NCBI GenBank assembly: GCA_964536865.1
Contig: CAZHYN010000004.1
Location: forward strand, 12,900-76,899
Direction: 5' to 3'
DNA: 64,000 bases
Origin: an uncultured Planctomycetia bacterium
Lineage (GTDB): Bacteria > Omnitrophota > Gorgyraeia > Duberdicusellales > 4484-171
Shown here: one piece after another, positions 29,482-46,715 of the stretch
Layout of the letters: each line of letters starts with the position of its first letter
Position numbering within the stretch: position 1 is the stretch's first letter
Translations under genes and position numbers: made by a program
Notes under the pieces: generated by a model
What the model saw: the letters and a program-made list of their open reading frames with translations, nothing else
Database searches by the model: none
What the model was told of the DNA's origin: nothing

Positions 29482-29581
29482 TTAAGGTAAATGTCGGACA
29501 GCAGACTTCTAATAGTTTCCCTTGATTTTAGTTATAAATCTCCAGTTCAAAGAAAAAGTTAATGAATGTGAGGTTAAACCA

Positions 29582-29598
29582 TGCCGAGGGCGGGAGTC
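29582..29598 (-). repeat. Orphan copy of the 3' end of tRNA-Leu, inside a 43-bp direct repeat (29556-29598 and 29907-29949)
   Basis: tgccgagggcgggagtc with the 5' flank aagttaatgaatgtgagRttaaaccatg matches 29907-29949 almost exactly. Confidence 0.8.
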
Positions 29599-29808
29599 AA
29601 GGCACTGAGTGCTTCGCACTATTTTAACCAGTGCCTTCATAGGGACTCTGTCCACTTGAGGCTCGGCTCATAGGAAAAAATCACAGAAAATAACTTCGCC
29701 TCGCTGTCACCCTGAAGTATTATCAAAGAAGATATTGTTAATAATTATTTTTAGAAGGTATTTAAAAAGAATAATGTAGACCCCAATTCTGACTTTAAAA
29801 ACAAAAAG

Positions 29809-29826
29809 TGCCGAGGGCGGGAGTCG
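29809..29826 (-). repeat. Second orphan tRNA-Leu 3'-end fragment (18 nt) with a different flank
   Basis: tgccgagggcgggagtcg is identical to the tRNA-Leu 3' terminus. It is followed by hairpin tcgcc-aaa-ggcga at 29835-29847. Confidence 0.8.
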
Positions 29827-29932
29827 TAACAAATTCGCCAAAGGCGATTTCCCTTATTTGTTCCGACAATACTTTCGTTTCAGAGTTAACTTCTAGCTTA
29901 AAAAAGAAGTTAATGAATGTGAGATTAAACCA

Positions 29933-30016
29933 TGCCGAGGGCGGGAGTCGAACCCGCACAGAGTTACCTCTACCGGTTTTTGAGACCGACGCGTCTGCCA
30001 ATTCCGCCACCTCGGC
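29933..30016 (-). tRNA. tRNA-Leu(CAA), class II with long variable arm; CCA not encoded
   Basis: Hand-folded from the sequence. Acceptor GCCGAGG/CCTCGGC. Anticodon stem TCGGT/ACCGG with loop CTCAAAA. 15-nt variable arm. T arm GCGGG-TTCGACT-CCCGC. Discriminator A. Confidence 0.85.
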
Positions 30017-30185
30017 ATTTACTTTATATTATTATCCTACTCCTATTAGTCTTGCTCCTTAACAACTTCTCTCTTCTATTAACTACACGGGAACAACTAA
30101 ATTGAGCTTCGCTGTAATAACAGCGAAAGTTGTTACCGCCACCTCGGCATTTACTTTATATTATTATCCTACTCCTATTAGTTCT
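30000..30185. repeat. ~49-bp direct repeat (30000-30048 and 30137-30185) copying the tRNA-Leu 5' end plus its upstream flank
   Basis: ccgccacctcggcatttactttatattattatcctactcctattagt occurs twice, 137 bp apart. The spacer contains palindrome cgctgtaataacagcg. Confidence 0.85.
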
Positions 30186-30421
30186 GTCTATAGGATTTTT
30201 TCTATTAACTAATAATAACTACTAAATTAGTCTTTACCTCTTGACGGAGAAGACTATTTTTTCTTGGTCTCTATTTCTTTATTTGTTCCGGGAACTTTAA
30301 AATCTTAGCATTAGCAAAATTCTTTGTCAATTGACAATTTTTCTGTTAGATGATATATTTTAGTTTAAAGTTTCTCCCTAAAGTAGACAGAGCATATAGA
30401 TAGATGAGAGAGGCCGTAGTT

Positions 30422-31170
30422 TCCGCCAAAGGCGGACCCACTTATGAGGGGCGATCCTTGATGGGCCATTTAAAAATAAATAAATTTCTTCTTTGGTCAT
30501 ACTCTAGGGGTGACAGCAAGCCGTGTTTAACTACCTCGGATTTACTTATAGGCTTGCGTCAGAGGGGCAGAGCCCCTATGAGGAGCGTAAGCGACAGGGC
30601 CGTAGTTTCCGCCAAAGGCGGACCCGCTTATGAGCGGGCAGCAGGGAGTAAGTTGTCTGCAACGTTAAGTTGCAGTATTCTTAAATATACAACTTCCTCC
30701 ATTGTTTATGATGTTAAAGATAGGCTGTCTCTTTAAAATAGAAGCTAAAGAAAAGTGATGGGGCCGTAGTTCAGCAGGGAGAACGCTACGCTGGCAGCGT
30801 AGAGGTCAGGGGTTCAAATCCCCTCGGCTCCACCAGTTAGATTGTTAAATTCTCATTTTTAGGTGATATAAATGTTTTTATTAATAGATGGTAATTTTTA
30901 AGGTTTTCCAGTAAAATTGCGGGGCCGTAGTTTCCGCCAAAGGCGGACCCGCTTATGAGCGGGCAGCAGGGAGTAAGTTGTCTGCAACGTTAAGTTGCAG
31001 TATTCTTAAATATACAACTTCCTCCATTGTTTATGATGTTAAAGATAGGCTGTCTCTTTAAAATAGAAGCTAAAGAAAAGAGATGGGGCCGTAGTTCAGC
31101 AGGGAGAACGCTACGCTGGCAGCGTAGAGGTCACGGGTTTCCGCCAGAGGCGGACCCGCCTTTAGGCGGG
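30422..31170 (+). repeat. Four copies of a ~31-nt GC-rich double-hairpin mini-element (30422-30451, 30608-30639, 30933-30964, 31140-31170)
   Basis: Consensus tccgccaRaggcgga-cccgcYtWtRaGcggg. Copies 1-3 follow gccgtagtt, a tRNA-Ala 5'-end mimic. Copy 4 lies inside the T-loop of the second tRNA-Ala. Stem 2 shows compensatory T:A to C:G change between copies. Confidence 0.8.
30760..30835 (+). tRNA. tRNA-Ala(GGC) with G3:U70 identity pair; CCA encoded
   Basis: GGGGCCGTAGTTCAGCAGGGAGAACGCTACGCTGGCAGCGTAGAGGTCAGGGGTTCAAATCCCCTCGGCTCCACCA. Anticodon loop CTGGCAG. T arm AGGGG-TTCAAAT-CCCCT. Confidence 0.9.
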
Positions 31171-31191
31171 CAAATCCCGTCGGCTCCACCA
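31085..31191 (+). tRNA. tRNA-Ala(GGC) second copy interrupted by a 31-nt double-hairpin insertion in the T-loop (possible pseudogene, or an intron-like insertion)
   Basis: Identical to copy 1 through the variable loop. Insert tccgccagaggcggacccgcctttaggcggg sits between T-loop TT and CAAAT. T-stem pair 50:64 changed G:C to C:G, which preserves pairing. Confidence 0.6.
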
Positions 31192-31208
31192 GCCAATTCC
31201 TTAAAGAG

Positions 31209-32066
31209 TTGTTAAGGTTAGGTGTTCAAGTTTCAATTGCTGGTGGTATCCATTTCTCCGTAGATAGAGCGTTGAAATTAGGGTGTAATGCTATGCAGAT
31301 ATTCTCTCGTAATCCACGGAAGTTTAGAAAGAGTTTTCTAAAAGTGGAAGATATAGAACTTTTTAAAAAAAAGATCAGTGGTTCTTCTATCTTTCCCCTG
31401 GTTATTCATACTCCTTATACCTTAAATTTAGCTACCCCTCAAAAATTCCTTCATTGGATTACTACTAAGGAGTTTATCGCTGATTTAATAGAGGCAGACA
31501 AGTTAGGCGCTCACTACTTAGTTACTCATCCAGGCTGTTATAAAGGAACTACTAAAGAGGGAGGGTTAAATCAAGTAGTAAAGGGTTTAAGGAGAATATT
31601 GAAAAATACTCAAGAGGTAAAGACAGAGATTCTTTTAGAAAATACTGCAGGGGGTGGCACGTGTCTGGGATCTAAAATTTCTCAGTATAGATTCATATTG
31701 GAAAAGTTGGATTTCACTCCCCGGATAGGTATATGTTTAGATACTGCTCATGCATGGTGTGCAGGTTATAGGATAAATACTCACCAAGGTTTAGAAGAAC
31801 TACTTCAAGAGATAGAAAAAGAGGTAGGTATCCAAAGATTAAAACTTATTCACCTTAATGATACCCTTGAAGAATTGGGTTCAAAGAAAGACCGTCATTA
31901 TCATATTGGGGAAGGTATGATTGGGAGAGATGGTTTTTCTTTGATAGTTAACCATCCTTTTCTTAAGAACTTACCTTTTATTTTAGAGACACCTAAAAAG
32001 AACGATAGGGATGATATAAAGAATTTAAATACTGTAAGAGCACTTTATAGAGATGAATTACTCTAA
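31209..32066 (+). CDS. nfo: Endonuclease IV (AP endonuclease family 2)
   Basis: TIM-barrel xylose-isomerase-like fold. ILLENTAGGG. LGICLDTAHAW. 285 aa. Confidence 0.85.
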   Translation: MLRLGVQVSIAGGIHFSVDRALKLGCNAMQIFSRNPRKFRKSFLKVEDIELFKKKISGSSIFPLVIHTPYTLNLATPQKFLHWITTKEFIADLIEADKLGAHYLVTHPGCYKGTTKEGGLNQVVKGLRRILKNTQEVKTEILLENTAGGGTCLGSKISQYRFILEKLDFTPRIGICLDTAHAWCAGYRINTHQGLEELLQEIEKEVGIQRLKLIHLNDTLEELGSKKDRHYHIGEGMIGRDGFSLIVNHPFLKNLPFILETPKKNDRDDIKNLNTVRALYRDELL

Positions 32067-37030: not shown

Positions 37031-39358
37031 ATGGAAGAGTATTATCGTTCCTACTGCGATGATGATCTCTGGTTAATTAGAGAAACTGTATGGGCCCCTT
37101 CTCTTCAAAATATCCGTGAATCCCAGTTTACCTTGGGCAATGGTTACTTTGCTAGTCGAGGAGTTTTAGAGGAGATCCCTTACCAGGCTATGTCTGGCAC
37201 CTACATTGCAGGAATTTACGATGGAATTGGTTCTCAGGTTAAGGAGTTAGTAAATTTCCCTAATCCCTTCAATTTCCGTTTTACAGTGAAGGGAGAAAAA
37301 GTTGGTTTAGCAACAATGAGGAATGTATTTCATAAGCGTATCTTAAATACTAAGAAGGCAGTCTTGGTAAGGCATACACTTTTTGAGAATGTAAGAAGAC
37401 ACAGATTCGATTACCAGTCTATAAGGTTCGTTTCTCTAGATAATAAGAATTTAGGAGTCATGCAGATTATCTTTACTCCCCTAGATAAAAATTGCCTTTT
37501 AGATATCTATACAGGAATTGATACTTCAGTTTTTAATGTAGGTACAGTTACTGAAGGTAAGAAAAGACACTTTAAAGTTAAGGAAGCAGGTCAGTTCAAA
37601 GACGCAGGTTATTTGGCAGTTGTAACTTTAGAGAAGAAGTATGTAGTGATTTACTGGGCAGGATTTTACTATGAAGTTGATGGGAAAAAGATACCTGCTT
37701 CTGACAATGTTTTTCAACTCGAACTTAAGAAAGACCAGAGTGTGAAATTTACTAAATTATTTTTTATAAAACATTTTCCTTATCGAGAAGATATCCACCT
37801 TTACAAAGAAAGGACATTTGTTAGATTTTCTCAAGCCTTCCGCACGGATTTTAATAAGCTTATCACTCAACATATAAAGAAGTGGGAGAGTGTATGGAGA
37901 AAGGTAGATATACTCATTGAGGGGACAGCTAATCTGCAGCAAAATTTAAGATTCAACCTCTATCATCTTCTCATAGCTGCTCCCCAAGATAGAGGATTTT
38001 CCAGTATTGGTGCTCGAACTTTAAGTGGAGAAGGTTACCGGGGACATGTCTTTTGGGATACTGAGTTATTTGTGATGCCTTTCTATCTTTATACTCTCCC
38101 TCAAGTTGCCAAAAATATTCTTCTCTATCGCTACCGAAGGTTACCTAAAGCTAGGGAGTTAGCCAAGAATGAAGGATATAATGGAGCTAAATTTCCTTGG
38201 GAATCTGCAGATACGGGAGAGGAAGAAACACCTGCCTGGGCAAGAGATTTCGATAGTTCCATTATAAAGATTCAAACCCATCTTTACGAACATCATATAA
38301 CTGCGGATGTAGCTTATGCTTTCTATAGATACTACTTAGCTACTGGTGACGAAGAGTTCTTAAAAAAATATGCCTGCGAAGTTATTTTTGAGACAGCACG
38401 TTTCTGGGCTTCTCGAGTTTTTTACAATAGAACTACTAAGAGATACGAGATAAGAGGGATAATTGGGCCAGATGAGTTTCACATTAATGTGAATAACAAT
38501 GCTTATACTAATGGCTTGGTACAGTGGATTCTTTCTTTAGGTCATACTCTCTTTTTCTACCTTAAAAAGAGAGCGCCATCATCTTTCTCTCAACTTAAGG
38601 AGAAATTAGGACTTAGGGAGAAGGAAGTAAAGGAGTGGGTAAAGATCGCTAAGAAGCTTAAGTTAAATATAGATAAGAAGAGTAGAGTTATTGAACAATT
38701 TGATGGATATTTTAAATTGAGAGAGATAGAACTTGAGAAAACCGATGAGAATGGCATTCCTCTTCTTCCTAAGTACCTTAAAGCTAAAGACTTAAGGTAT
38801 ACAAAACTCATAAAACAGGCTGACGTTTTGATGCTTCTCTATATCTTAACGAATAAGTTTAGTTCCTCCGTAATAAGAGCCAACTATAATTACTACATAA
38901 AAAGGACTCTTCATAAATCCTCTCTCAGTGCTCCTATTCATGCCATAATGGCAGTAAAGTGTGAAGACATGCACCGGGCTTATAATCTTTTTAATGTTTC
39001 TCTCCGTACTGATATAAGCAATCTTTACGGTAATACTCAGGAAGGTATTCATGCGGCAAGCTTAGGAGGAACGTGGCAAGCGGTAGTTTTTGGTTTTTGT
39101 GGGATAGAATTTATAGATGATATAATTAGTGTTACCCCTAAATTTCCTCGTACCTGGCAAAAGGTGAAATTCTCTCTCACTTATCGAGGCGATAGAGTAG
39201 AATTTGATTTGACAAATGAGGAGGTGAGAGTAAAAATAGTATCTAAAAAGAAGAAAAAAACGAAAGTGGTAGTATTTGGTAAACCTTATTCTATTTTGAC
39301 TAATAAAAAGTATAAGTTTTTCAAAAAAGGTGTTAAGAAGGAGGAGTACTATTACTAA
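37031..39358 (+). CDS. GH65 glycoside hydrolase family disaccharide phosphorylase (kojibiose, trehalose or maltose phosphorylase type)
   Basis: 775 aa. N-terminal beta-sandwich, (alpha/alpha)6 catalytic barrel with RGHVFWDTE...PWESADTGEE motifs, C-terminal beta-sandwich. Confidence 0.8.
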   Translation: MEEYYRSYCDDDLWLIRETVWAPSLQNIRESQFTLGNGYFASRGVLEEIPYQAMSGTYIAGIYDGIGSQVKELVNFPNPFNFRFTVKGEKVGLATMRNVFHKRILNTKKAVLVRHTLFENVRRHRFDYQSIRFVSLDNKNLGVMQIIFTPLDKNCLLDIYTGIDTSVFNVGTVTEGKKRHFKVKEAGQFKDAGYLAVVTLEKKYVVIYWAGFYYEVDGKKIPASDNVFQLELKKDQSVKFTKLFFIKHFPYREDIHLYKERTFVRFSQAFRTDFNKLITQHIKKWESVWRKVDILIEGTANLQQNLRFNLYHLLIAAPQDRGFSSIGARTLSGEGYRGHVFWDTELFVMPFYLYTLPQVAKNILLYRYRRLPKARELAKNEGYNGAKFPWESADTGEEETPAWARDFDSSIIKIQTHLYEHHITADVAYAFYRYYLATGDEEFLKKYACEVIFETARFWASRVFYNRTTKRYEIRGIIGPDEFHINVNNNAYTNGLVQWILSLGHTLFFYLKKRAPSSFSQLKEKLGLREKEVKEWVKIAKKLKLNIDKKSRVIEQFDGYFKLREIELEKTDENGIPLLPKYLKAKDLRYTKLIKQADVLMLLYILTNKFSSSVIRANYNYYIKRTLHKSSLSAPIHAIMAVKCEDMHRAYNLFNVSLRTDISNLYGNTQEGIHAASLGGTWQAVVFGFCGIEFIDDIISVTPKFPRTWQKVKFSLTYRGDRVEFDLTNEEVRVKIVSKKKKKTKVVVFGKPYSILTNKKYKFFKKGVKKEEYYY

Positions 39359-40553
39359 GAAGGAGAAAGTTCACAAAAAAAAGTTAAGTATTGCTCACCT
39401 CCATTGGGGATTCCCCCCTATTATAGGAGGGGTAGAAACCCACCTTACCATAATTCTCCCTCAGATGGCAAAAAAAGGTTATAAGGTGTCTCTTTTAACT
39501 TGTTCTGCAGAAAAGGCGAAAGCAAGAGAAAGTTACTGTGGTGTAGAAGTTTTTCGTTATCCCATTATGGACTTAAACTGGCTCTATAAAAGAGGGTTAC
39601 AGGGATTGGAGGAGGAGGTAACTCACATTTTCACTTCCTTTATAGATAAGACTAAACCTCATATTCTTCATGCCCATAATATGCATTATTTTAGTGAGAT
39701 TCACGCTTTCACTCTAGAAAGAATAGCGAAGAAGAAGGGTATTCCTTTGATTCTTACTGCTCATAATGTTTGGGATGACGTTTTATTTTTAGAACTTACT
39801 CATAAGATAGATTGGCAGCATATTATTGCGGTAAGCCACTATATTAAGAGAGAAATTATAGGGATAGGTGTTGATGATAGAAAAATTACTGTTGTTCATC
39901 ATGGTTTAGATGAAACTAAGTTCCATCCTCGGATCAAATCATCACGAATTTTGAAAAAATATCCTCAGCTTAAGGGTAGGAAAGTAATTTTTCATCCTGC
40001 AAGAATTGGTTTAGCTAAGGGATGTGACATAAGTATTAAGGCTGTAAATATCGTAAGAGAGAAGTATCCCGAAGTAATTTTAGTATTAGCGGGTTCTAGA
40101 AATATCATCGATTGGGGAGCGACTCAGCAGAAAGATATCGCTTACATGGTAAATCTTATAAAACATTTTAGGTTAGAAAAAAATATTCTCATTGATTTCT
40201 ATTCTTTGGAAGAGATGCGTGAACTTTATGCTCTGAGCGATATTTGTGTTTATCCTTCTACAGTTCCTGAACCTTTTGGATTGACGATGCTGGAGGCTCA
40301 GGCTTGTGGCAAACCCATGGTAGTTACTAACTCAGGAGGAATGCCTGAGATAATAAAAGATGGGGTAAATGGTTTTGTTATTAATATTAGAGATTTTGAG
40401 AACTTAGCAGCTAAAATTGTTCAATTGCTAGAAGATAGGCGTTTGCGAGAAAGATTAGGTTATACAGGGAGGCAGATTGTGGAGTCTTATTATACTAAGG
40501 AGAGGGTTACTCACGATACACTTGCAGTTTATAAGAAGTTTATTAATTTTTAG
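39330..40553 (+). CDS. GT4-family glycosyltransferase
   Basis: GT-B fold. C-terminal EPFGLTMLEAQACGKPMVVTNSGGMPEII motif. Start codon uncertain: a GTG at 39330 overlaps the GH65 stop, and an A8 tract lies near the 5' end. Confidence 0.75.
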   Translation: MLRRRSTITKKEKVHKKKLSIAHLHWGFPPIIGGVETHLTIILPQMAKKGYKVSLLTCSAEKAKARESYCGVEVFRYPIMDLNWLYKRGLQGLEEEVTHIFTSFIDKTKPHILHAHNMHYFSEIHAFTLERIAKKKGIPLILTAHNVWDDVLFLELTHKIDWQHIIAVSHYIKREIIGIGVDDRKITVVHHGLDETKFHPRIKSSRILKKYPQLKGRKVIFHPARIGLAKGCDISIKAVNIVREKYPEVILVLAGSRNIIDWGATQQKDIAYMVNLIKHFRLEKNILIDFYSLEEMRELYALSDICVYPSTVPEPFGLTMLEAQACGKPMVVTNSGGMPEIIKDGVNGFVINIRDFENLAAKIVQLLEDRRLRERLGYTGRQIVESYYTKERVTHDTLAVYKKFINF

Positions 40554-40562
40554 AAGTTAGAT

Positions 40563-42032
40563 ATGCTTAGGGGATGGAGCAAAAAAACTGTAATAGACCT
40601 AGTAAAGACTAAGTTAGAGAGGGCCTTATTTGTCGTTGTCTCTAACCGCCAACCTTACATCCATAAATTTATTAAAGGGAAAATTCATTGTTTAAAAGGT
40701 CCGGGAGGAGTGGTAACCGCTATTGATCCTGTAATGCAGGAGATTAAAGGTTTATGGGTCTGCTGTGGTAGTGGAGATGCCGATAAAATTGTGGCTAAAG
40801 ATAGTAAAGTGAATGTTCCTCCGGAGATGCCATCTTATCAAGTTAAGTATGTATGGTTAACTAAGGAAGAGAATTTAGGTTATTATTATGGATTTTCTAA
40901 TCAAGCTCTCTGGCCTCTCTCTCATCTGGTTTTTGTTAAACCAATATTTAGAGACGAGGATTGGAGAATCTATAAAGAGGTGAATAAAAAATTTGCTCAA
41001 AGTATCTATGAAGAAATAAAGGATAAGAGGGCAGTAGTGTTTATTCAGGATTATCATCTTGCTATGGTAAGTAAGTATTTAAAGGAGAGCAAACCCGATG
41101 TTGTTACTATTCTTTTTTGGCATATTCCCTGGCCTACTTACGATGTGTTTAGAATCCTTCCCTGTAAACAAGAATTTTTAGAAGGTTTACTTAGTTATAA
41201 TCTCTTAGGGTTTCATATAAGGTACTTCTGTAACAATTTCTTTGAGGCAGTAGCAAACGAACTGGAGAGCAAAATAAATAGAGAGACTTCTACTATTATC
41301 TATCAAGGTAAATCTACATTAGTAAAAGCTTATCCTATAAGTATTGATTTTGAAGGGATAAGTAATAAGAGTGGAGAAAAAGATGTAGAAGAGGCTATGG
41401 TGTCTTTAAAAGAAGAGTTTGGTTTAGAGGGTTACAAGATTATTGTGGGGTTAGATAGAATAGATTATACCAAAGGAATAGTAGAGAGAATTCTAGCCAT
41501 AGATAAACTCCTTCAGTTGCACCCCGAGCTTAGAGAGAAGATTATATTCATTCAGATGGGTGAAATATCTCGTATTCATATAGCTCAGTACAAACAACTC
41601 AACGATCAAATAAATGCCTTGGTAGAGGAGGTAAACTTTAAGCATTCTACCGATAGTTGGCGACCTATAATTTTTGTAAGGAGACACCTTTCTTTCAGTG
41701 AACTTTTAGCCTTCTATAGATTAGCAAATGTATGTATAGTAAGTTCTCTCCATGATGGAATGAATCTGGTAGCTAAGGAATTTATCTCTTCTCGGTGTGA
41801 CGAATTAGGAGTACTCCTCTTAAGTAGGTTTACAGGAGCAGCACGAGAGCTTAAAGAAGCGGTTCTTATCAATCCTTACTCTCAAAGGGAGAGTGCAGAA
41901 GCGCTTTTCTTTGCTCTTGGTATGAAGGAAGAGGAACAAAAAAGGAGGATGAAAGCTTTAAGAGTGTATATTCAGCGTAACAATATCTGGCGTTGGATTG
42001 GTAAAATAGTTGTTGATATTCCTTGGAAGTGA
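40563..42032 (+). CDS. otsA: Alpha,alpha-trehalose-phosphate synthase (GT20)
   Basis: 489 aa. GT20 motifs WVHDYHL-like VFIQDYHLAM, HIPWP, and RGVNLVAKEF-like DGMNLVAKEF. Confidence 0.85.
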   Translation: MLRGWSKKTVIDLVKTKLERALFVVVSNRQPYIHKFIKGKIHCLKGPGGVVTAIDPVMQEIKGLWVCCGSGDADKIVAKDSKVNVPPEMPSYQVKYVWLTKEENLGYYYGFSNQALWPLSHLVFVKPIFRDEDWRIYKEVNKKFAQSIYEEIKDKRAVVFIQDYHLAMVSKYLKESKPDVVTILFWHIPWPTYDVFRILPCKQEFLEGLLSYNLLGFHIRYFCNNFFEAVANELESKINRETSTIIYQGKSTLVKAYPISIDFEGISNKSGEKDVEEAMVSLKEEFGLEGYKIIVGLDRIDYTKGIVERILAIDKLLQLHPELREKIIFIQMGEISRIHIAQYKQLNDQINALVEEVNFKHSTDSWRPIIFVRRHLSFSELLAFYRLANVCIVSSLHDGMNLVAKEFISSRCDELGVLLLSRFTGAARELKEAVLINPYSQRESAEALFFALGMKEEEQKRRMKALRVYIQRNNIWRWIGKIVVDIPWK

Positions 42033-43624
42033 TGGATGATGTTGCTTTTCCTTTCCAAGCAGTTGTTTTTGATTTAGATGGTGTAATTACCCAAACTGCC
42101 TACCTTCATTTCCAAGCTTGGAAGCAAACCTTTGATGAGTATTTACGTTTCAGAGAGAAAGAAAAATTTAGAGAATTTACTGAGCAAGATTATCTTAACT
42201 ATGTAGATGGAAGACCACGCTATGATGGAGTTAAGACTTTTCTTTCCTCTCGAGGGATTCAAATTAGTTGGGGAGAGCCTACTGATTCTCCTGGTGAGGA
42301 AACAATCTGCGGGTTAGGGAATAAAAAAAATGTGATTTTTAAAAATCTTTTAGAAAGTAAAGGAGCCAAAAAGTATCCTACCACAGTAGAGTTTATCCAA
42401 GAGCTTAAAGAAAAGGGAATAAAGATAGGTGTAGCCTCTTCCTCTAAAAATTGTCGTGCTATTCTCAGCTCTACCCGAATTATAGATCTCTTTGATGCTT
42501 GTGTAGATGGGATAGTTTCTCAACAGTTTAATCTTCAGGGTAAACCTGAACCAGATATATTTCTCTTAACTAGTAAAGATTTGAAGGTTTCCCCTTCCAA
42601 GACAGTTGTAGTTGAAGATGCTAGTTCAGGGGTAGAGGCAGCTCGCAATGGAGGTTTCGGATTAGTCATAGGAGTTGCCCGCAAAGATAATAAAGAAGAT
42701 CTCTTAAATTCGGGAGCGGATTTAGCATTGAGTGATCTAAAGTTCATAGATATAGAGTGGATCAATGAATGGTTTAAAAAAAGCCCTTTTTACCTTTTTG
42801 ATTTCTGGGATAGAGGAACAAGAGAGGAATTAGGAGTTTTTAAGAAGAACGAAGATATAGTTTTAAACCCCTGGTATTTTTTGAGCTTTAAAGATGCTAT
42901 TTTTTCCAGAAAGCAGTTAGCCTTTTTCTTTGATTATGATGGCACACTTACCCCTATTGTTAAGAGACCAGAATTAGCAGTGTTATCTACCCAGATGCGC
43001 TCCTTAATTAAAAAAATAGCTAAGAAATACCCTACCGCCATAGTGAGCGGAAGACAGAGAGAAGAGGTAGAAAAGTTAGTAGGAGTAGAAGGCATTTACT
43101 ATGTAGGAAGCCATGGTTTTGATATAAAAGGAGGCGGTTTTTCTTATATTCATCCCCAGCTAAAGGGAATAGTTCCTTTAATCTCTCATATAGCAGAAGA
43201 GTTTTCTACCAAGTTGAGAAGTATCCAGGGGGTGATCATTGAGAATAAGAAGTTCAGTGTTGCTCTCCATTATCGTCTGGTAGAGGATAAGTTCTTAGAC
43301 AATATTAAGAAGGTAGTAGATGAAGTAAAGAGAGAGTATTCTAACTTGCGGTTAATGTGTGGCAAGAAGGTTTTTGAATTTATGCCTGATATTGATTGGG
43401 ATAAAGGTAAAGCCATAAGATGGCTTCTTAGTATACTAAATATTTCTTGGAGAGAGTATGCAGTAATTTATATTGGCGATGATACTACTGATGAAGATGC
43501 ATTCAGAATGGTGCGGACTAGGGGAATAGGGATTCTAGTTTCTGAAGGTAAGGCTACTTCAGCAGCTGATTACTTTGTTCACTCTCCCCAGGAAGTTAGA
43601 AAGCTTTTAGAAAGATTTGTATGA
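42023..43624 (+). CDS. Fusion of a beta-phosphoglucomutase-like HAD domain with trehalose-6-phosphate phosphatase
   Basis: N-terminal half has HAD motif I VVFDLDGVIT and a beta-PGM-like cap. C-terminal half restarts with FFFDYDGTLTP and ends in OtsB-like motifs GDDTTDEDAF. 10-bp overlap with otsA. Confidence 0.8.
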   Translation: MEVMDDVAFPFQAVVFDLDGVITQTAYLHFQAWKQTFDEYLRFREKEKFREFTEQDYLNYVDGRPRYDGVKTFLSSRGIQISWGEPTDSPGEETICGLGNKKNVIFKNLLESKGAKKYPTTVEFIQELKEKGIKIGVASSSKNCRAILSSTRIIDLFDACVDGIVSQQFNLQGKPEPDIFLLTSKDLKVSPSKTVVVEDASSGVEAARNGGFGLVIGVARKDNKEDLLNSGADLALSDLKFIDIEWINEWFKKSPFYLFDFWDRGTREELGVFKKNEDIVLNPWYFLSFKDAIFSRKQLAFFFDYDGTLTPIVKRPELAVLSTQMRSLIKKIAKKYPTAIVSGRQREEVEKLVGVEGIYYVGSHGFDIKGGGFSYIHPQLKGIVPLISHIAEEFSTKLRSIQGVIIENKKFSVALHYRLVEDKFLDNIKKVVDEVKREYSNLRLMCGKKVFEFMPDIDWDKGKAIRWLLSILNISWREYAVIYIGDDTTDEDAFRMVRTRGIGILVSEGKATSAADYFVHSPQEVRKLLERFV

Positions 43625-46047
43625 AAGATTCTACCTGGACGATTACCTACACTCACTTTGAACCTGCTCATGAGGGACTACGGGAGGCCCTATGTACTTT
43701 GGGTAACGGTTACTTTGCTACTCGAGGAGCCGCTCCTGAAGGGATAATCTCAAAAATTCACTATCCAGGAACTTACATTGCTGGAGTTTATAATAAACTC
43801 TCTACTAACCTAGCAGGGAAAATAGTAGTTAATGAAGATTTAGTAAATTGTCCTAACTGGCTCTATATTACCTTTAAGGTCGGAGAGGAAGATTGGTTTA
43901 TTCCTTCAGAAGCTAACCTCACCTTTTACCATCAGGAGTTAGATATGCGTGAAGGCATATTGAAGAGAACACTTAAATTTAAAGATAAACAAGGAAGAGT
44001 TACTCAGGTATTTACCGAGAGGTTAGTTCATATGAGGTATCCCCATATAGGAGCATTGAGGTATCTTATTGCTCCTTTAAACTATGACGGTTGGATTACT
44101 GTAAGAGTTATGCTTGATGGAGCAGTAGAGAATAGAGGAGTGGAGAGATACCGGCAATTGAATTCCAAACATCTTAAACCTTCTGCCTTAGGTAGCTTTG
44201 GAAAAGATGGTATATACTTGGTTATGGTTACTTCTCAATCGAAGATAAAAATAGCCCAAGCTTGCAGAGTTTCGTTCTTTATAAATGGAGAGAGAGCAAG
44301 GCCAGTGATAAAGACCGTACGCCGGCGATTGATGGAAGGTAGAGAAAGGATTGGTCAGGAGTTCCGTTTCTTCGCTCGTCGGAGAGTTTCCTATGAGGTG
44401 CAGAAGATTGTCTCTATATATACCTCTAAAGATTTCTTGAAAAGAGACCCTGCCAAAGAAGCAATCAGAGCGGTAAAGAGGGTGCCCTCTTTTATTAAAT
44501 TGGTAGCTCATCAAAGGCAAACCTGGCAAAGTCTTTGGAATAGATTCGATATAACTATTCAGGGAGATAAATTTTCTCAGTGGGCGTTAAGGGTCCATAT
44601 TTTTCATCTTTTGCAAACAGCCTCTCCTAACAATGTCAATTTAGATGTAAGCATTCCTGCTCGTGGTCTTCATGGAGAAGCTTACCGAGGTCATATCTTT
44701 TGGGATGAGATTTTTATTATGCACTTTTATGATCTTCACTATCCTCAGATTTCTAAGGTCTTTCTCTTGTACCGTTACCGGAGATTAGAGAAAGCAAGAC
44801 AGTTAGCTAAGAGATTCGGTTACAAAGGGGCTATGTATCCTTGGCAAAGTGCCTCAACGGGAGATGAGGAGACTCAGATGTATCACTTGAATCCTCTCTC
44901 GGGTAAGTGGGGACCCGATTATAGTTCTTATCAAAGACATATCTCTTTTGCTGTTGCTTATAACGTATGGAAGTACTGGGAAAGAACTTTGGATTTTCAA
45001 TTCCTTATTCACTTCGGTGCAGAGATGATTCTTTCTATAGCTCAGTTTGGAGCAAGCCTTGTTAGTTACAGTAGAAAAGATAAGCGCTACCATACTGAAA
45101 GAGTGATGGGGCCAGACGAATTTCATGAAAGATATCCTCATGCTAAGCAACCAGGGCTTAGAGATAATACCTATACTAACTTTATGATTGTCTGGACTCT
45201 CAATAAGGCCAAGGAGGTTATTAAAATTCTACCTTCCTCTTATAAAAACAGACTTTTCAAAAAACTAGGAATAACTGAGAAGGATTTGAAACTTTGGGAT
45301 GATATTACCAGAAGGATGAATATAGTGATCAATCGCAGGGGTATCATTGCTCAATTTGATGGTTACTTTGCTCTTAAAGAATTAGATTGGAAAAAGTACA
45401 TGTTTGAGTACGGGGACGTTAAAAGGATGGATAGAATCTTAAAAGCCGAGGGGAAAACTCCTGATGAATACAAGGTAACTAAGCAGGCAGATGTCCTTAT
45501 GATTTTTTATCTTTTCTCTCTTCGAGAAATCAAGAAAGTTTTTAATGAGTTAGGATATAGATTTGATCTTAAAATGTTGAGAAAAAACTATGAATACTAT
45601 AGTAGGAGAACCTCTCATGGTTCTACTCTGAGCAAAGTTGTACATTGTTTTGTAGCTCATAGTCTAGGGAAGAAAGAAGAAGCGTGGGATTGGTTTGTAG
45701 ATACGTTAGAATCAGATATATATGATACTCAGAGAGGGACTACTCCTGAAGGAATTCATACGGGAGTTATGGGAGGTTCCATCGATGTAGTAGTAAGAGC
45801 ATTTGCAGGTTTAAGTCTGGGTGATTCTATCAGGATAAATCCTTCTCTTCCTAAAAAATGGAGAAAACTCAGTTTAAAATTTCTCTACAGAGACCTGTGG
45901 TTTACTCTTTCTATTAGAGATAGAGCTTTTACACTCTCTGTAGATAAGGAAAAAAGGAGTAAAATATCTACTTCCATAGATATTGTAGTAGGGAATAGAG
46001 TTTATAAATTCCCCTTAGTAAGGAAGGCTACCTTCTCTATAAAGTAA
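43621..46047 (+). CDS. Second GH65-family disaccharide phosphorylase
   Basis: 808 aa paralogue of the 37031 gene (RGHIFWDE...PWQSASTGDEE). ATGA overlap with upstream gene. Confidence 0.8.
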   Translation: MKDSTWTITYTHFEPAHEGLREALCTLGNGYFATRGAAPEGIISKIHYPGTYIAGVYNKLSTNLAGKIVVNEDLVNCPNWLYITFKVGEEDWFIPSEANLTFYHQELDMREGILKRTLKFKDKQGRVTQVFTERLVHMRYPHIGALRYLIAPLNYDGWITVRVMLDGAVENRGVERYRQLNSKHLKPSALGSFGKDGIYLVMVTSQSKIKIAQACRVSFFINGERARPVIKTVRRRLMEGRERIGQEFRFFARRRVSYEVQKIVSIYTSKDFLKRDPAKEAIRAVKRVPSFIKLVAHQRQTWQSLWNRFDITIQGDKFSQWALRVHIFHLLQTASPNNVNLDVSIPARGLHGEAYRGHIFWDEIFIMHFYDLHYPQISKVFLLYRYRRLEKARQLAKRFGYKGAMYPWQSASTGDEETQMYHLNPLSGKWGPDYSSYQRHISFAVAYNVWKYWERTLDFQFLIHFGAEMILSIAQFGASLVSYSRKDKRYHTERVMGPDEFHERYPHAKQPGLRDNTYTNFMIVWTLNKAKEVIKILPSSYKNRLFKKLGITEKDLKLWDDITRRMNIVINRRGIIAQFDGYFALKELDWKKYMFEYGDVKRMDRILKAEGKTPDEYKVTKQADVLMIFYLFSLREIKKVFNELGYRFDLKMLRKNYEYYSRRTSHGSTLSKVVHCFVAHSLGKKEEAWDWFVDTLESDIYDTQRGTTPEGIHTGVMGGSIDVVVRAFAGLSLGDSIRINPSLPKKWRKLSLKFLYRDLWFTLSIRDRAFTLSVDKEKRSKISTSIDIVVGNRVYKFPLVRKATFSIK

Positions 46048-46058
46048 ATAGTTCATAA

Positions 46059-46715
46059 GTGGGAGGAGAATACTTTCATTTCCATACTCGGGTAACTCAG
46101 GTAGAGCTTTTAGGGTATACCGCTCGCAATGTAAAGGAGTTGTATCAAGGGATAAAAAGAGTTCCCTCTTCCAGTATATATCACCACACCCATCGTTATC
46201 TTGAGCAACACCGGTATTTTTCTCCTGAACATCCCAATGATTTTTCTTATTGGATTAATAATAGTTTAGGACTTAGGAAGTTGGGAGAGAGGATTGCTAG
46301 TGTTGATATCTTTCAGTTTTCTGATATAGAGGATTTACGAAAAGAATTTCTAATAATTTTAGATGAATATCTTAAAACTGCTCCTGCTTTAAGAGGTTGT
46401 CTTCCAGGGGAGGAGTTTCGTTTCCTTTCTTCAAAGATTTTTATTCTTCCTACACCTTTCAAGGCACATAATCTTGAAGAGTTTTCTCTTTATCTTAAGA
46501 GGGTTACTGTACACTCTCTCTACTTTCATATATTTGAAGCAAAGGTAAGATTAAAAAGAGCAGATAATGATTTCTCCTGTTGGCTAAGAGATCTAGGATA
46601 TAAGGAGTTAGCAGAAAAGATTTCCAAAATCGATCCATATACACATACTTTAGAAGGACTTAGGCAAAAGATCATAAATCTTGTAAGTGAACACCTATAT
46701 GGCAAGGATAGATGA
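46059..46715 (+). CDS. Conserved hypothetical protein in the trehalose cluster (218 aa)
   Basis: No TM segments, no recognisable motif. Tightly packed between GH65 and treT. Confidence 0.4.
   Translation: MGGEYFHFHTRVTQVELLGYTARNVKELYQGIKRVPSSSIYHHTHRYLEQHRYFSPEHPNDFSYWINNSLGLRKLGERIASVDIFQFSDIEDLRKEFLIILDEYLKTAPALRGCLPGEEFRFLSSKIFILPTPFKAHNLEEFSLYLKRVTVHSLYFHIFEAKVRLKRADNDFSCWLRDLGYKELAEKISKIDPYTHTLEGLRQKIINLVSEHLYGKDR

What the first reader, a model, noticed from the sequence alone, without database searches (positions are those of the whole stretch)
31085..31191. Second tRNA-Ala(GGC) copy carries a 31-nt T-loop insertion together with a compensatory T-stem change
Copy 2 is identical to the intact tRNA-Ala (30760-30835) through the variable loop. 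A 31-nt insert then follows T54-T55, and the 50:64 T-stem pair switches from G:C to C:G (cagggg/cccctc becomes cacggg/cccgtc), keeping the stem intact.

A preserved stem on a disrupted gene suggests the RNA is still under structural selection. Candidates are an unconventional processed or intron-containing tRNA, or a tRNA-derived regulatory RNA. The alternative is a young pseudogene.

Bacterial tRNA introns are normally group I and sit in the anticodon loop, so a short structured T-loop insertion would be unusual.
Basis: partly seen in the sequence, partly recalled or inferred. Interest (0 to 1): 0.65.

Follow-up and report, generated by a model that had tools for sequence, protein, structure and literature searches.

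The report
tRNA-Ala gene split by hairpin repeat
The second tRNA-Ala copy is this bacterium's original gene, recently broken by a 31-base hairpin-forming repeat that recurs inside tRNA-derived sequence; the "compensatory" stem change is simply the gene's normal allele, so this is a young pseudogene rather than an intron-containing tRNA.

Summary
Copy 2 (31085-31191) equals copy 1 (30760-30835) plus a 31-nt insert between T55 and C56, and has C50:G64 where copy 1 has G50:C64.

The main inference fails. C50:G64 is the normal allele of the uninterrupted, single tRNA-Ala(GGC) gene in the eight closest related loci. G50:C64 is the allele of more distant Omnitrophota. The pair therefore predates the insertion.

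The insert ("X") is a GC-rich double-hairpin repeat. Three more copies lie within 720 nt upstream, each at GTT|C inside tRNA-Ala 5' fragments.

A relative with 97% nucleotide identity has neither the insert nor the duplication, so the event is recent. Two independent assemblies reproduce it.

There is no bulge-helix-bulge motif, no group I intron core, and no transposase or integrase in 64 kb.

Best reading: the native gene was knocked out by a small tRNA-associated repeat, and copy 1 supplies the function.

One point remains open. A distant Omnitrophota clade has the same live-plus-interrupted tandem. There X and its flanks stay about 96% conserved while the rest of the dead copy decays. X also marks tRNA fragments in Patescibacteria. 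The family appears undescribed and its mode of spread is unknown.

The parts
31085..31139 (+). tRNA-Ala(GGC) copy 2, nt 1-55. This is the native gene. C50 is at 31134.
   Evidence: Sequence. Identical to copy 1 except nt 50. Rfam tRNA model 49.3 bits with permissive filters.
31140..31170 (+). X_T: the 31-nt double-hairpin insert TCCGCCAGAGGCGGACCCGCCTTTAGGCGGG, between T55 and C56.
   Evidence: covariance model 55.9 bits. Folds at -21.2 kcal/mol as RNA and -13.4 kcal/mol as DNA, z -4.6 and -5.3. Identical 31/31 to the L012 insert at the same site.
31171..31191 (+). tRNA-Ala copy 2, nt 56-76 including the encoded CCA. G64 is at 31179.
   Evidence: The downstream flank matches that of the single native gene in L031 and L023.
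30760..30835 (+). tRNA-Ala(GGC) copy 1, intact. G50 is at 30809 and C64 at 30823. Probably the working gene.
   Evidence: ARAGORN. Rfam 66.9 bits. The T-arm allele is that of L038, L040-42 and L046-51.
30836..30920 (+). Spacer between copy 1 and FragB. Positions 30836-30856 match the start of the post-tRNA spacer of the L046 clade. Positions 30861-30920 match that clade's promoter -10 region and leader, and include TGATATAAAT.
   Evidence: Local alignments with shuffles give z 5.3 and z 6.9.
30921..30973 (+). FragB: tRNA-Ala nt 1-12 (30921-30932), X_D (30933-30963), then tRNA-Ala nt 13-22 (30964-30973).
   Evidence: 57.1 bits.
30597..30648 (+). FragA: tRNA-Ala nt 2-12 (30597-30607), X_D (30608-30638), then nt 13-22 (30639-30648). 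The next ~56 nt weakly resemble the rest of a tRNA-Ala.
   Evidence: Residual similarity z 3.3-3.6. Present in L023, L031, L032, L033 and L037.
30410..30468 (+). Frag0: a tRNA 5' piece GAGGCCGTAGTT (30410-30421), a 30-nt degenerate X (30422-30451), then CGATCCTTGATGGGCCA, which looks like the 3' side of a T loop plus the 3' end of a tRNA.
   Evidence: 47.6 bits. Orthologous copies in L023, L031, L032 and L033.
30597..30814 (+). First arm of the 218-nt direct repeat. The second arm is 30922-31139, and the start-to-start spacing is 325 nt.
   Evidence: the repeat finder family D1, 99% identity. Mismatch list.
30331..30359 (+). Sigma-70-like promoter TTGACA-17-TATATT. It is one half of a divergent pair around the palindrome TTGTCAATTGACAA and probably drives Frag0, FragA, copy 1 and downstream sequence.
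   Evidence: Promoter scan, 11 of 12 positions matched. The same promoter lies ~45 nt upstream of tRNA-Ala in L034 and L035, which lack the fragments.
31209..32066 (+). nfo (endonuclease IV). Its start lies 18 nt after the CCA of copy 2. It anchors the orthologous loci.
   Evidence: Pfam AP_endonuc_2, E 1.6e-40. Homologues named deoxyribonuclease IV in Candidatus Omnitrophica.

Best explanation
Copy 2 is this lineage's original tRNA-Ala(GGC) gene. It sits where every relative has its only tRNA-Ala, immediately upstream of nfo-leuS. It has recently been interrupted between T55 and C56 by a 31-nt GC-rich double-hairpin repeat (X).

X is a repeat family. Three further copies lie 0.2-0.7 kb upstream. 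Each is inserted at the same GTT|C motif, but in the D stem (T12|C13) of leftover tRNA-Ala 5' fragments.

The C50:G64 pair is the ordinary allele of this gene in the closest relatives. The G50:C64 pair of copy 1 is the ordinary allele of a more distant Omnitrophota clade. Copy 1's T arm and the spacer behind it resemble that clade's locus. The stem difference is therefore normal covariation between two functional alleles brought together by duplication or recombination, and it predates the insertion.

Inferred steps. Copy 1 supplies tRNA-Ala(GGC). Copy 2 is probably transcribed, but it cannot form the T-loop/D-loop elbow because the insert separates residues 55 and 56, and nothing indicates that the insert is removed. 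Copy 2 is therefore a pseudogene in the making.

Also inferred: X spreads among tRNA-like sequences in one of two ways. One is enzyme-mediated site-specific insertion without target duplication. The other is recombination that uses the highly conserved tRNA flanks as homology arms. Either way, interrupted copies then decay and leave the series of tRNA fragments seen here.
For: SHOWN.
- Precise 31-nt insertion with no target duplication. Excision in silico restores a callable tRNA.
- X is repeated. There are four copies in 64 kb, all at this locus, with covariance-model scores of 47-57 bits and nothing else above 20 bits.
- C50:G64 occurs in eight uninterrupted orthologues. G50:C64 occurs in eight others.
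- L031 (97.3% nucleotide identity over nfo-leuS) and L023, L032 and L033 (88.7%) have one uninterrupted gene and no duplication.
- Independent assemblies L043 and L044 carry the interrupted gene.
- The spacer behind copy 1 matches L046-clade spacer and leader sequence, z 5.3 and 6.9.
- The same live-plus-interrupted tandem, with X at 55|56, exists in the L012/L046/L051 clade. There the interrupted copy has lost its acceptor and anticodon stems.
- Of 40 X-like hits in the fetched loci, only the window's T-loop copy sits in an otherwise complete tRNA. The tRNA-associated hits lie in tRNA fragments. These include Patescibacteria (L001, L019, L010, L002) and unclassified metagenome contigs (L024, L026, L029), where X lies at 12|13 or 55|56.
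- No transposase, integrase, splicing endonuclease or RNA ligase domain was found in 60 window ORFs scanned (58 of the 59 ORFs of at least 110 aa plus one of 106 aa).

FROM ESTABLISHED KNOWLEDGE. Psi55 and C56 pair with G18 and G19 to build the tRNA elbow.
Against: Copy 2 carries no other lesion. It still folds as a cloverleaf with an extra arm (-53 kcal/mol, z -3.4) and scores 49.3 bits with the tRNA model. Function after some unknown processing is therefore not excluded by sequence alone.

In the L012/L046/L051 clade, X plus 16 nt upstream and 21 nt downstream is 65/68 identical between lineages. Their nfo-leuS is 77% identical and their neighbouring non-coding DNA is 50-77% identical. That argues for constraint, or repeated refreshing, of the X module rather than simple decay.

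No mobilising enzyme has been identified, and both modes of spread have a difficulty. The T-site copies of X resemble one another, and so do the D-site copies; this fits spread together with the flanks better than free transposition. But the native C50 and G64 lie only 5 and 8 nt from X in the window, which is hard to reconcile with import by homologous recombination from a G:C-type donor.

There are no expression data.
Confidence: 0.78

Rival explanations
1. Copy 2 is a functional interrupted tRNA gene. X is an intervening sequence removed from the precursor by a protein endonuclease plus ligase, or by an unknown route, to give a second tRNA-Ala(GGC) isodecoder.
For: The cloverleaf is otherwise intact, and X folds into a compact, stable extra arm. 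The tRNA model scores 49.3 bits. Small introns at positions such as 53/54, 56/57 and 59/60 exist in archaea, and similar introns at different sites suggest intron transposition (PMC4090602).
Against: No bulge-helix-bulge can be drawn. The nucleotides next to both junctions (CGGG/GGCG, and CGCC/AATC) do not form the required 4-bp helix between 3-nt bulges (manual check on the sequence; motif definition from PMC4090602).

The host is bacterial and the window encodes no EndA or RtcB.

Every other tRNA-associated X copy sits in a tRNA fragment that cannot make a tRNA.

The orthologous X-bearing copy in L012, L046 and L051 has lost its acceptor and anticodon stems.

An intact copy 1 makes copy 2 dispensable.
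Confidence: 0.05
2. The X-interrupted T arm plus the 3' acceptor strand is a selected cis-acting module in its own right. It would not be a tRNA. It could be an RNA processing or 5'-stabilising structure for the downstream nfo-leuS-comEA-comEC transcript, or a DNA site used in recombination. The window's copy would be a fresh instance of that module.
For: In the L012/L046/L051 clade the block of 16 nt + X + 21 nt is 65/68 identical between L012 and L051. The 5' half of the same dead copy is 30/39 identical, the next 110 nt are ~50% identical, and nfo-leuS coding DNA is 77% identical. The two differences between X in L012 and X in L051 fall in hairpin loops and not in stems.

The module lies upstream of nfo in both clades. 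In the window the nfo start is 18 nt after the CCA.

The sequences directly flanking the D-stem copies of X also stay identical to the live tRNA. D-loop nt 16-17 covary between fragment and gene in four lineages.
Against: Eight closer relatives manage without it at this position, so it is not needed for nfo expression.

In Patescibacteria the left flank is not conserved.

The conservation could instead reflect repeated re-insertion or gene conversion.

No U-tract terminator or known motif is present, and there is no Rfam match.
Confidence: 0.15
3. The tRNA fragments and the duplicated gene are attachment-site scars of integrative elements that target tRNA-Ala, and X is part of the element end or att site rather than an independent insertion.
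For: [quoted passage not shown] The locus is a mosaic, with foreign-looking DNA behind copy 1. tRNA-Leu 3' and 5' fragments flank the neighbouring gene. In the dead copies of the L046 clade the conserved block runs from about nt 40 to the 3' end, like an att identity block.
Against: There is no integrase in 64 kb, and none is visible in the called genes of the orthologous loci.

The units between fragments are only ~110-190 nt.

In the window X has tRNA sequence on both sides, with nothing else inserted. It also interrupts the T loop, which would be the crossover region of a T-loop-targeting integrase.

There are no matches in viral contigs, phage records or plasmid records.
Confidence: 0.08
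4. Assembly artefact: two strain variants of one tRNA-Ala locus were joined into a false tandem, or the insert is a chimeric join.
For: The region contains a 218-nt near-perfect repeat. The independent contigs L043 and L044 both end inside it, so the tandem junction itself is seen only in the window.
Against: The insert and its junctions to nfo are reproduced exactly in two other assemblies. A contig break at the repeat is what a genuine duplication produces. The same tandem architecture is assembled on long contigs in another clade (L046-L051).
Confidence: 0.03

Closest known systems
REP/BIME-type and MITE-type small palindromic repeats of bacteria (REP elements with RAYT transposases; IS200/IS605-derived miniature elements)
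   Same: Short, GC-rich, hairpin-forming and non-coding. Present as multiple copies. Shows an occupied/empty polymorphism between close relatives. Inserts precisely on the 3' side of a short conserved motif, in one orientation, without target duplication. The family properties are recalled from my own knowledge; the features of X are.
   Different: Only 31 nt, made of two directly adjacent hairpins with no room for subterminal guide sequences. Only 4 copies in 64 kb, all inside tRNA-derived sequence, rather than dispersed in intergenic DNA. No Y1/HUH transposase was found in the window. GTAG precedes only the D-stem copies, and there it is tRNA sequence.
Mitochondrial double-hairpin elements and mobile GC clusters (Allomyces, yeasts and other fungi)
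   Same: Tiny elements consisting of two adjacent GC-rich hairpins in an AT-rich genome (window GC ~36%). They are inferred to be mobile and tend to land in or next to structural RNA genes. The term and its literature appear; the details are from my own knowledge.
   Different: Those are organellar; X is in free-living or episymbiotic bacteria. There is no sequence relationship. Those elements are not known to be restricted to the GTT|C of tRNA T loops and D stems.
Archaeal protein-spliced tRNA introns at non-canonical positions, including 'intron transposition' in Thermoproteales
   Same: Small inserts (median 12-25 nt) at D-arm and T-arm positions. Near-identical inserts occur at different positions and in different tRNAs, and are thought to spread at the DNA level (PMC4090602).
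   Different: The defining bulge-helix-bulge motif is absent. The host is a bacterium with no splicing endonuclease in view. The hosts of X are pseudogenes and fragments, not working genes.
Group I introns in bacterial tRNA genes (anticodon loop, including 35/36 in Patescibacteria)
   Same: Interruption of a bacterial tRNA gene that makes standard tRNA finders miss it (PMC13011429).
   Different: Group I introns are hundreds of nt long, have a conserved catalytic core and sit in the anticodon loop. X is 31 nt, sits in the T loop or D stem, and gives no Rfam intron hit.
tRNA gene fragments left by integrative elements
   Same: Partial tRNA copies sit next to a live tRNA gene, and the locus is a mosaic between strains (PMC9897764).
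   Different: No integrase or element body is present. The fragments are 5' as well as 3' pieces. Each carries the same hairpin insert at a fixed tRNA position.

Membership tests
Canonical functional bacterial tRNA | Cloverleaf with a contiguous 7-nt T loop (T54-Psi55-C56 adjacent), so that the elbow can form with G18/G19. | tested here: not met
   31 nt separate T55 and C56. ARAGORN and the Rfam gathering-threshold run do not call copy 2. It is recovered only with permissive filters, at 49.3 bits against 66.9 bits for copy 1.
Canonical functional bacterial tRNA | Acceptor, D and anticodon stems and identity elements intact (G3:U70, A73 for alanine). | tested here: met
   Nt 1-49 are identical to copy 1. 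G3:U70 and A73-CCA are present.
Archaeal-type (protein-spliced) tRNA intron | Bulge-helix-bulge at the exon-intron junctions: a 4-bp helix flanked by two 3-nt bulges. | tested here: not met
   Neither possible register gives a 4-bp helix. CGGG with GGCG gives 2 of 4 pairs, and CGCC with AATC gives 0 of 4. This was a manual check on the sequence and the and 65 folds, using the motif definition in PMC4090602.
Archaeal-type (protein-spliced) tRNA intron | The host encodes a splicing endonuclease and an RNA ligase. | tested here: inconclusive
   None was found among the 60 ORFs scanned in the 64-kb window. The rest of the genome was not available.
Group I intron in tRNA | Catalytic core (P3-P9, roughly 200 nt or more) located in the anticodon loop. 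| tested here: not met
   The insert is 31 nt and lies in the T loop. No intron family was found by Rfam even at E <= 5.
Small non-autonomous mobile repeat (MITE/REP-like) | Multiple similar copies in one genome and in relatives. | tested here: met
   Four copies in the window. Copies are also present in L012, L023, L024, L031-33, L037, L046-51 and in Patescibacteria loci.
Small non-autonomous mobile repeat (MITE/REP-like) | The same site is occupied in some close relatives and empty in others. | tested here: met
   The T loop of the nfo-adjacent tRNA-Ala is occupied in the window, L043 and L044. It is empty in L031 (97.3% nt identity), L023, L032, L033 and L034-37.
Small non-autonomous mobile repeat (MITE/REP-like) | Terminal inverted repeats and a target-site duplication (classical MITE). 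| tested here: not met
   There is no duplication at either junction, and the two hairpins are direct neighbours rather than terminal inverted repeats.
IS200/IS605- or RAYT-mobilised hairpin element | Insertion on the 3' side of a fixed short motif, without duplication, in one orientation, with hairpins at the ends. | tested here: met
   The tRNA-associated copies read GTT|X|C(A/G) in the tRNA sense, with small deviations in L010, L016 and L002.
IS200/IS605- or RAYT-mobilised hairpin element | A cognate Y1 HUH transposase in the genome, and guide sequences next to the hairpin feet. | tested here: inconclusive
   No such protein is encoded in the window and the rest of the genome was not searched. 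The hairpins abut both ends of X, leaving no internal guide sequence.
tRNA pseudogene | A disrupting lesion, together with an intact paralogue that covers the function, and absence of the lesion in orthologues. | tested here: met
   In another clade the equivalent copy has gone on to lose its stems.
Integrative-element att remnant | An integrase gene or element body bounded by direct repeats of the tRNA segment. | tested here: not met
   No integrase was found. Inter-fragment units are 110-190 nt. There are no viral, phage or plasmid matches.

The most novel reading that the evidence does not exclude
X is an undescribed kind of ultra-small (31 nt) selfish element that lives only in tRNA sequence, precisely at the GTT|C of the T loop (55|56) and of the D stem (12|13). 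It is shared by Omnitrophota and Patescibacteria. It would propagate either through an unknown site-specific enzyme or by riding on the near-universal tRNA flanks during recombination in naturally competent cells. It would repeatedly inactivate tRNA genes, force their replacement by duplication or imported copies, and persist with its immediate flanks long after the rest of the dead gene has decayed.
Probability: 0.4. Interest if true: 0.65.

Novelty: new variant of a known kind. Interest (0 to 1): 0.42.

Why it matters
For the finding as written, the result is sobering. A "compensatory" pair next to a lesion is not evidence of selection unless the pair is shown to be younger than the lesion. 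Here orthologues show that it is older.

For genome annotation, the case shows that tRNA finders silently drop a gene carrying a short structured insert, and that tRNA-like fragments can pile up around live genes.

The wider interest is the element. A 31-nt hairpin pair that recurs at two fixed tRNA positions in two phyla of mostly uncultured, small-genome bacteria is unusual. It accompanies rows of dead tRNA copies and stays conserved while its host copy decays.

If X is truly mobile and tRNA-specific, it would be among the smallest target-specific elements known. It would also be a driver of tRNA gene turnover in these lineages.

Tried and rejected
1. Archaeal-type intron: no bulge-helix-bulge can be drawn in either register. 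Rejected.

2. Group I intron or any known RNA family: Rfam at gathering threshold and at E <= 5 gives only tRNA hits and sub-threshold noise.
   - A permuted-tmRNA hit (32.5 bits, below the cut-off of 47; 30808-30929) is the by-product of a tRNA-Ala 3' end followed by a tRNA-Ala 5' fragment.

3. Small ribozyme (hammerhead-like three-way junction formed by the T stem and the two hairpins): the junction has only 7 unpaired nt and none of the conserved core. Rejected by inspection.

4. Integron attC, IS91 (GTTC target) and CRISPR-repeat analogies: the junction sequences do not fit. X lies inside GTT|C rather than after GTTC or at G|TT. Rejected by inspection, using my own knowledge of those systems.

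5. A transposase, integrase or splicing enzyme nearby: 60 window ORFs scanned with Pfam are all housekeeping, or have no match.

6. Phage or plasmid origin: no match in viral contigs, phage records or plasmid records.

7. Exact look-up of the window's own Nfo protein: not on record. ComEA worked instead.

8. Origin of the 85-nt spacer from the window's own nfo leader: only weak similarity (z 3.0). It was superseded by the much better match to L046-clade spacer and leader.

9. ARAGORN at relaxed threshold on FragA and Frag0 after removing X: nothing called.

10. The X-like hits in Phycisphaerales, Streptomyces, Bacteroidales hairpin arrays and Syntrophorhabdus-type multi-hairpin elements have no tRNA context. 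I treated them as unrelated or only distantly related GC hairpins. The search pattern itself fixed both stems, so stem conservation across hits is not independent evidence.
Full report
**Observation**

The window holds an intact tRNA-Ala(GGC) at 30760-30835. ARAGORN calls it and the Rfam tRNA model scores it at 66.9 bits.

A second copy lies at 31085-31191. It is identical to the first through nt 49. It carries C instead of G at nt 50 (31134) and G instead of C at nt 64 (31179). It also contains exactly 31 extra nucleotides, TCCGCCAGAGGCGGACCCGCCTTTAGGCGGG (31140-31170), between T55 and C56.

- The junctions cannot be shifted and nothing is duplicated.
- Removing the 31 nt in silico gives a tRNA-Ala that ARAGORN calls, with the junction at position 55.
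- Over the 239 nt shared by the two repeat units, the only differences are one leader base and the paired 50/64 change.
- The 107-nt RNA folds as a cloverleaf with an extra arm (-53 kcal/mol, z -3.4).
- Two independent assemblies carry the same interrupted gene next to nfo: L043, a 43-kb ENA contig, and L044, a Logan contig. Both contigs end inside the 218-nt repeat.

**Organism and locus**

The window is bacterial, with about 36% GC and dense housekeeping genes. Its Nfo protein is 99% identical to one named deoxyribonuclease IV from a Candidatus Omnitrophica genome.

The layout is as follows:
- tRNA-Leu(CAA) on the minus strand (29932-30017).
- A divergent sigma-70-like promoter pair around TTGTCAATTGACAA. 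The plus-strand promoter is TTGACA-17-TATATT at 30331-30359.
- The tRNA-Ala region.
- nfo, whose start lies 18 nt after the CCA of copy 2, followed by leuS, comEA and comEC.

**The "compensatory" pair is the native allele**

I fetched the nfo-upstream region from relatives, using Nfo homologues and DNA pattern scans. Every one has a single uninterrupted tRNA-Ala(GGC) there.

| T stem | Loci |
|---|---|
| CACGGG/CCCGTC (C50:G64) | L031, L023, L032, L033, L034, L035, L036, L037 |
| CAGGGG/CCCCTC (G50:C64) | L038, L040-42, L046-50, L051 |

These alleles are listed, with the underlying sequences. Nucleotide identity to the window over nfo-leuS is 97.3% for L031, 88.7% for L023, L032 and L033, 72-73% for L034-36, and 69.6% for L012.

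Copy 2 has the allele and the downstream flank of the closest relatives. It is the native gene. Both pairs are ordinary alleles of working genes. The covariation arose under normal tRNA selection before the insertion, so it says nothing about selection on the interrupted RNA.

**The insert is a repeat**

The same double hairpin occurs three more times just upstream. A covariance model built from family members scores these copies at 47-57 bits and finds only these four in 64 kb.

| Copy | Coordinates | Note |
|---|---|---|
| Frag0 | 30422-30451 | Degenerate, 30 nt |
| FragA | 30608-30638 | |
| FragB | 30933-30963 | |

- Each is preceded by GGCCGTAGTT, which is tRNA-Ala nt 3-12.
- In FragA and FragB it is followed by CAGCAGGGAG, which is nt 13-22.
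- These are therefore tRNA-Ala 5' fragments with X inserted between T12 and C13 of the D stem. This is the same GTT|CA context as the T-loop site.
- The D-site copies (X_D) differ from the T-loop copy (X_T) at 5 of 31 positions. One hairpin pair has switched from T:A to C:G.
- As DNA, both fold into two adjacent hairpins (-13.4 and -13.5 kcal/mol, z about -5.3). As RNA they reach -19 to -21 kcal/mol.

**Recency and mosaic origin**

L031 and the L023 group have Frag0 and FragA. They lack FragB, copy 1's allele and X_T. The duplication and the T-loop insertion are therefore younger than about 3% sequence divergence, unless they were lost in all those lineages.

The 85-nt spacer behind copy 1 is informative:
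- Its first 21 nt (GTTAGATTGTTAAATTCTCAT) match the start of the sequence that follows the live tRNA-Ala in the L046 clade (z 5.3).
- The remainder matches that clade's promoter -10 region and leader, AGGTGATATAAAT...GGTAATTTTTAAG...GTAAAATTGC (z 6.9).

Copy 1's G:C T arm and this spacer therefore look like DNA of that clade's type. They are joined in the order expected from a tandem unit. By inference, copy 1 is a hybrid or imported copy, and the window's locus is a recombinant mosaic. The exact sequence of events cannot be reconstructed from these data.

**The same architecture elsewhere**

The clade containing L012 includes L046-L050 (Nfo 90% identical to L012) and L051 (78%). Its Nfo is only about 55% identical to that of the window's closer relatives.

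This clade has a live tRNA-Ala(GGC). About 135 nt downstream lies a second copy with X at 55|56, followed by about 110 nt and then nfo. X there is identical (L012) or differs only in loop bases (L046, L051).

That second copy is clearly dead. Nt 1-39 are only 21-25 of 41 aligned positions identical to the live gene, with indels, and no acceptor stem remains.

The block formed by the 16 nt before X, X itself and the 21 nt after it is a different matter:
- It is 65/68 identical between L012 and L051.
- The 5' half of the same dead copy is 30/39 identical.
- The next 110 nt are about 50% identical.
- nfo-leuS coding DNA is 77% identical.

This block is either under constraint or is repeatedly refreshed. 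What is maintained cannot be a tRNA.

A similar pattern holds for X_D. The 22 tRNA nucleotides around it stay identical to the resident gene. D-loop positions 16-17 covary between fragment and gene: CA/CA in the window, TT/TT in L023, CT/CT in L037, and TG/CG in L031. The following about 56 nt retain only faint similarity to a tRNA (z 3.3-3.6).

**Other phyla**

A pattern scan of one genome per species found 20 loci, and a metagenome scan found 10. Several hits have no tRNA context and may be unrelated GC hairpins. These include Phycisphaerales, Streptomyces, Bacteroidales hairpin arrays and Syntrophorhabdus-type multi-hairpin elements.

Others repeat the pattern seen in the window:
- Parcubacteria L001 and Saccharibacteria L019 have a tRNA 5' piece ending ...CGTAGTT, then X, then CAA...
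- Falkowbacteria L010 and the unclassified contigs L026 and L029 have X followed by CGA(T/G)TCC and a tRNA 3' end. In L026 this lies 13 nt behind a live tRNA-Leu.
- L024 has a dead tRNA-Ala-like gene split around the live tRNA-Ala(TGC) of an rRNA spacer. It carries X in its D stem and a covarying X-like hairpin pair in its T loop.

After in-silico excision, only the window's T-loop copy yields a complete tRNA.

The search pattern fixed both stems. Stem identity across these hits is therefore imposed by the search and is not independent evidence of conservation.

**Tests of the intron and other hypotheses**

- No bulge-helix-bulge can be drawn at the junctions (motif definition from PMC4090602).
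- Group I introns are excluded by size, position and the absence of any Rfam match. The recently described Patescibacteria tRNA introns are group I and lie at 35/36 (PMC13011429).
- No transposase, integrase, splicing endonuclease or RNA ligase domain occurs among the 60 ORFs scanned.
- There is no match in viral contigs, phage records or plasmid records.
- Twenty GTTCRA hexamers elsewhere in the window are unoccupied. The association with tRNA-like sequence is therefore not explained by the hexamer alone.

**Mechanism**

Shown:
- The insertion is precise and has no target duplication.
- It lies at a fixed tRNA position.
- It shows an occupied/empty polymorphism among close relatives.
- It recurs at the same site in a distant clade.
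- Its host copies are dead or fragmentary everywhere else.

Inferred: copy 2 is non-functional, because residues 55 and 56 must be adjacent to build the elbow with G18 and G19 (established tRNA structure). Copy 1 carries the load.

How X spreads is open. There are two candidate routes.

- Site-specific, duplication-free insertion on the 3' side of GTT in a fixed orientation resembles single-strand HUH transposition (IS200/IS605, REP/RAYT; my own knowledge). However, X is too short for the known end architecture and no enzyme is in view.
- Spread by recombination, with the conserved tRNA flanks as homology arms, would explain several things: the restriction to tRNA sequence, the conserved flanks, the separate T-site and D-site subfamilies, and the lack of an enzyme. 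These organisms encode ComEA and ComEC. However, the native C50 and G64 lie only 5 and 8 nt from X in the window, which argues against import from a G:C-type donor.

**Verdict**

The finding is a real, recently interrupted native tRNA gene, in effect a young pseudogene. The "compensatory" pair is inherited and not adaptive. The insert is a member of a small, apparently undescribed hairpin repeat family tied to tRNA sequence.

The element family gives it moderate interest.

Noticed in passing
window 29541-30182: The neighbouring tRNA-Leu(CAA) gene (29932-30017, minus strand) is surrounded by partial copies of itself. There are 3' fragments beginning at about C56 (29581-29599 and 29808-29826) and a duplicated 5' end with its upstream flank (30004-30050 and 30136-30182). 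Each fragment abuts a different hairpin element, for example TCGCCAAAGGCGA flanked by AACAAAT...ATTTGTT.
   Followed up: partly
L038:1900-2460: In another Omnitrophota genome, tRNA-Leu(CAA) lies upstream of nfo. It is preceded by three tandem ~155-nt units. Each unit starts with the tRNA-Leu 5' end GCCGAGGTGGCGG followed by two GC hairpins and GGTTGTTCCCGC. This is the same 'row of dead copies with hairpins' architecture, built with a different hairpin element.
   Followed up: partly
L024:1380-1900: In an rRNA operon spacer, a live tRNA-Ala(TGC) sits between the 5' part and the 3' part of a dead tRNA-Ala-like gene. The anticodon-stem halves of the dead gene (CTGCAC / GTGCAG) are complementary. 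The dead gene carries X in its D stem and a covarying X-like pair (TCACCAAAGGTGA, TCCGCTGAGGTGGA) in its T loop.
   Followed up: partly
window 30808-30929: The Rfam permuted-tmRNA model gives a sub-threshold hit (32.5 bits, cut-off 47). It spans the tRNA-Ala 3' end, the spacer and the next tRNA-Ala 5' fragment. It is most likely a by-product of that arrangement, since only 60 of 213 model positions match.
   Followed up: partly
window 31171-31230: The nfo reading frame starts (TTG 31209) only 18 nt after the CCA of the tRNA, with no terminator between them. tRNA-Ala, nfo, leuS, comEA and comEC are probably one transcription unit. The spacer upstream of FragB carries an extended -10-like TGATATAAAT (about 30864-30873).
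   Followed up: no
window 30404-30736: A 110-aa ORF with no Pfam match runs across Frag0, FragA and their hairpins. It is almost certainly not a gene.
   Followed up: partly
L001:2290-2375 (minus strand): About 50 nt downstream of the X-bearing fragment in this Parcubacteria contig, a sequence starts like a tRNA (GCCCCCATAGCTCAACTGGATAGAGCAAGTCCG...). ARAGORN does not call it. It may be an intron-containing tRNA of the kind reported for Patescibacteria.
   Followed up: no
L005, L009, L018, L021, L022, L025, L030: In Syntrophorhabdus and Thermodesulfobacteriota contigs an X-like double hairpin (TTTCCGCCTGAGGCGGACCCGCTCTCCGGCGGGC) forms the core of a longer multi-hairpin repeat. That repeat is bounded by inverted ends (GTCATTCC...GGAATGAC) and has no tRNA context.
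   Followed up: no
L004, L008, L020: Short contigs of a Bacteroidales genome consist of long arrays of different GC-rich hairpins (GCACCGCCAGGTGC, GCGCCGCCAGGCGC, TCCGCCAGAGGCGGA, CCCGCC....GGCGGG) separated by TCAAAT-like linkers.
   Followed up: no
window 37031-47919: A cluster of trehalose-related genes: two GH65 phosphorylases, a GT4 glycosyltransferase, a GT20 trehalose-6-phosphate synthase, a trehalose phosphatase fused to a HAD domain, DUF5752 and a TreT-like synthase.
   Followed up: no
window 51972-53192: The UvrC-like ORF (GIY-YIG domain plus UvrC RNase H domain) is only 406 aa, which is shorter than typical UvrC.
   Followed up: no
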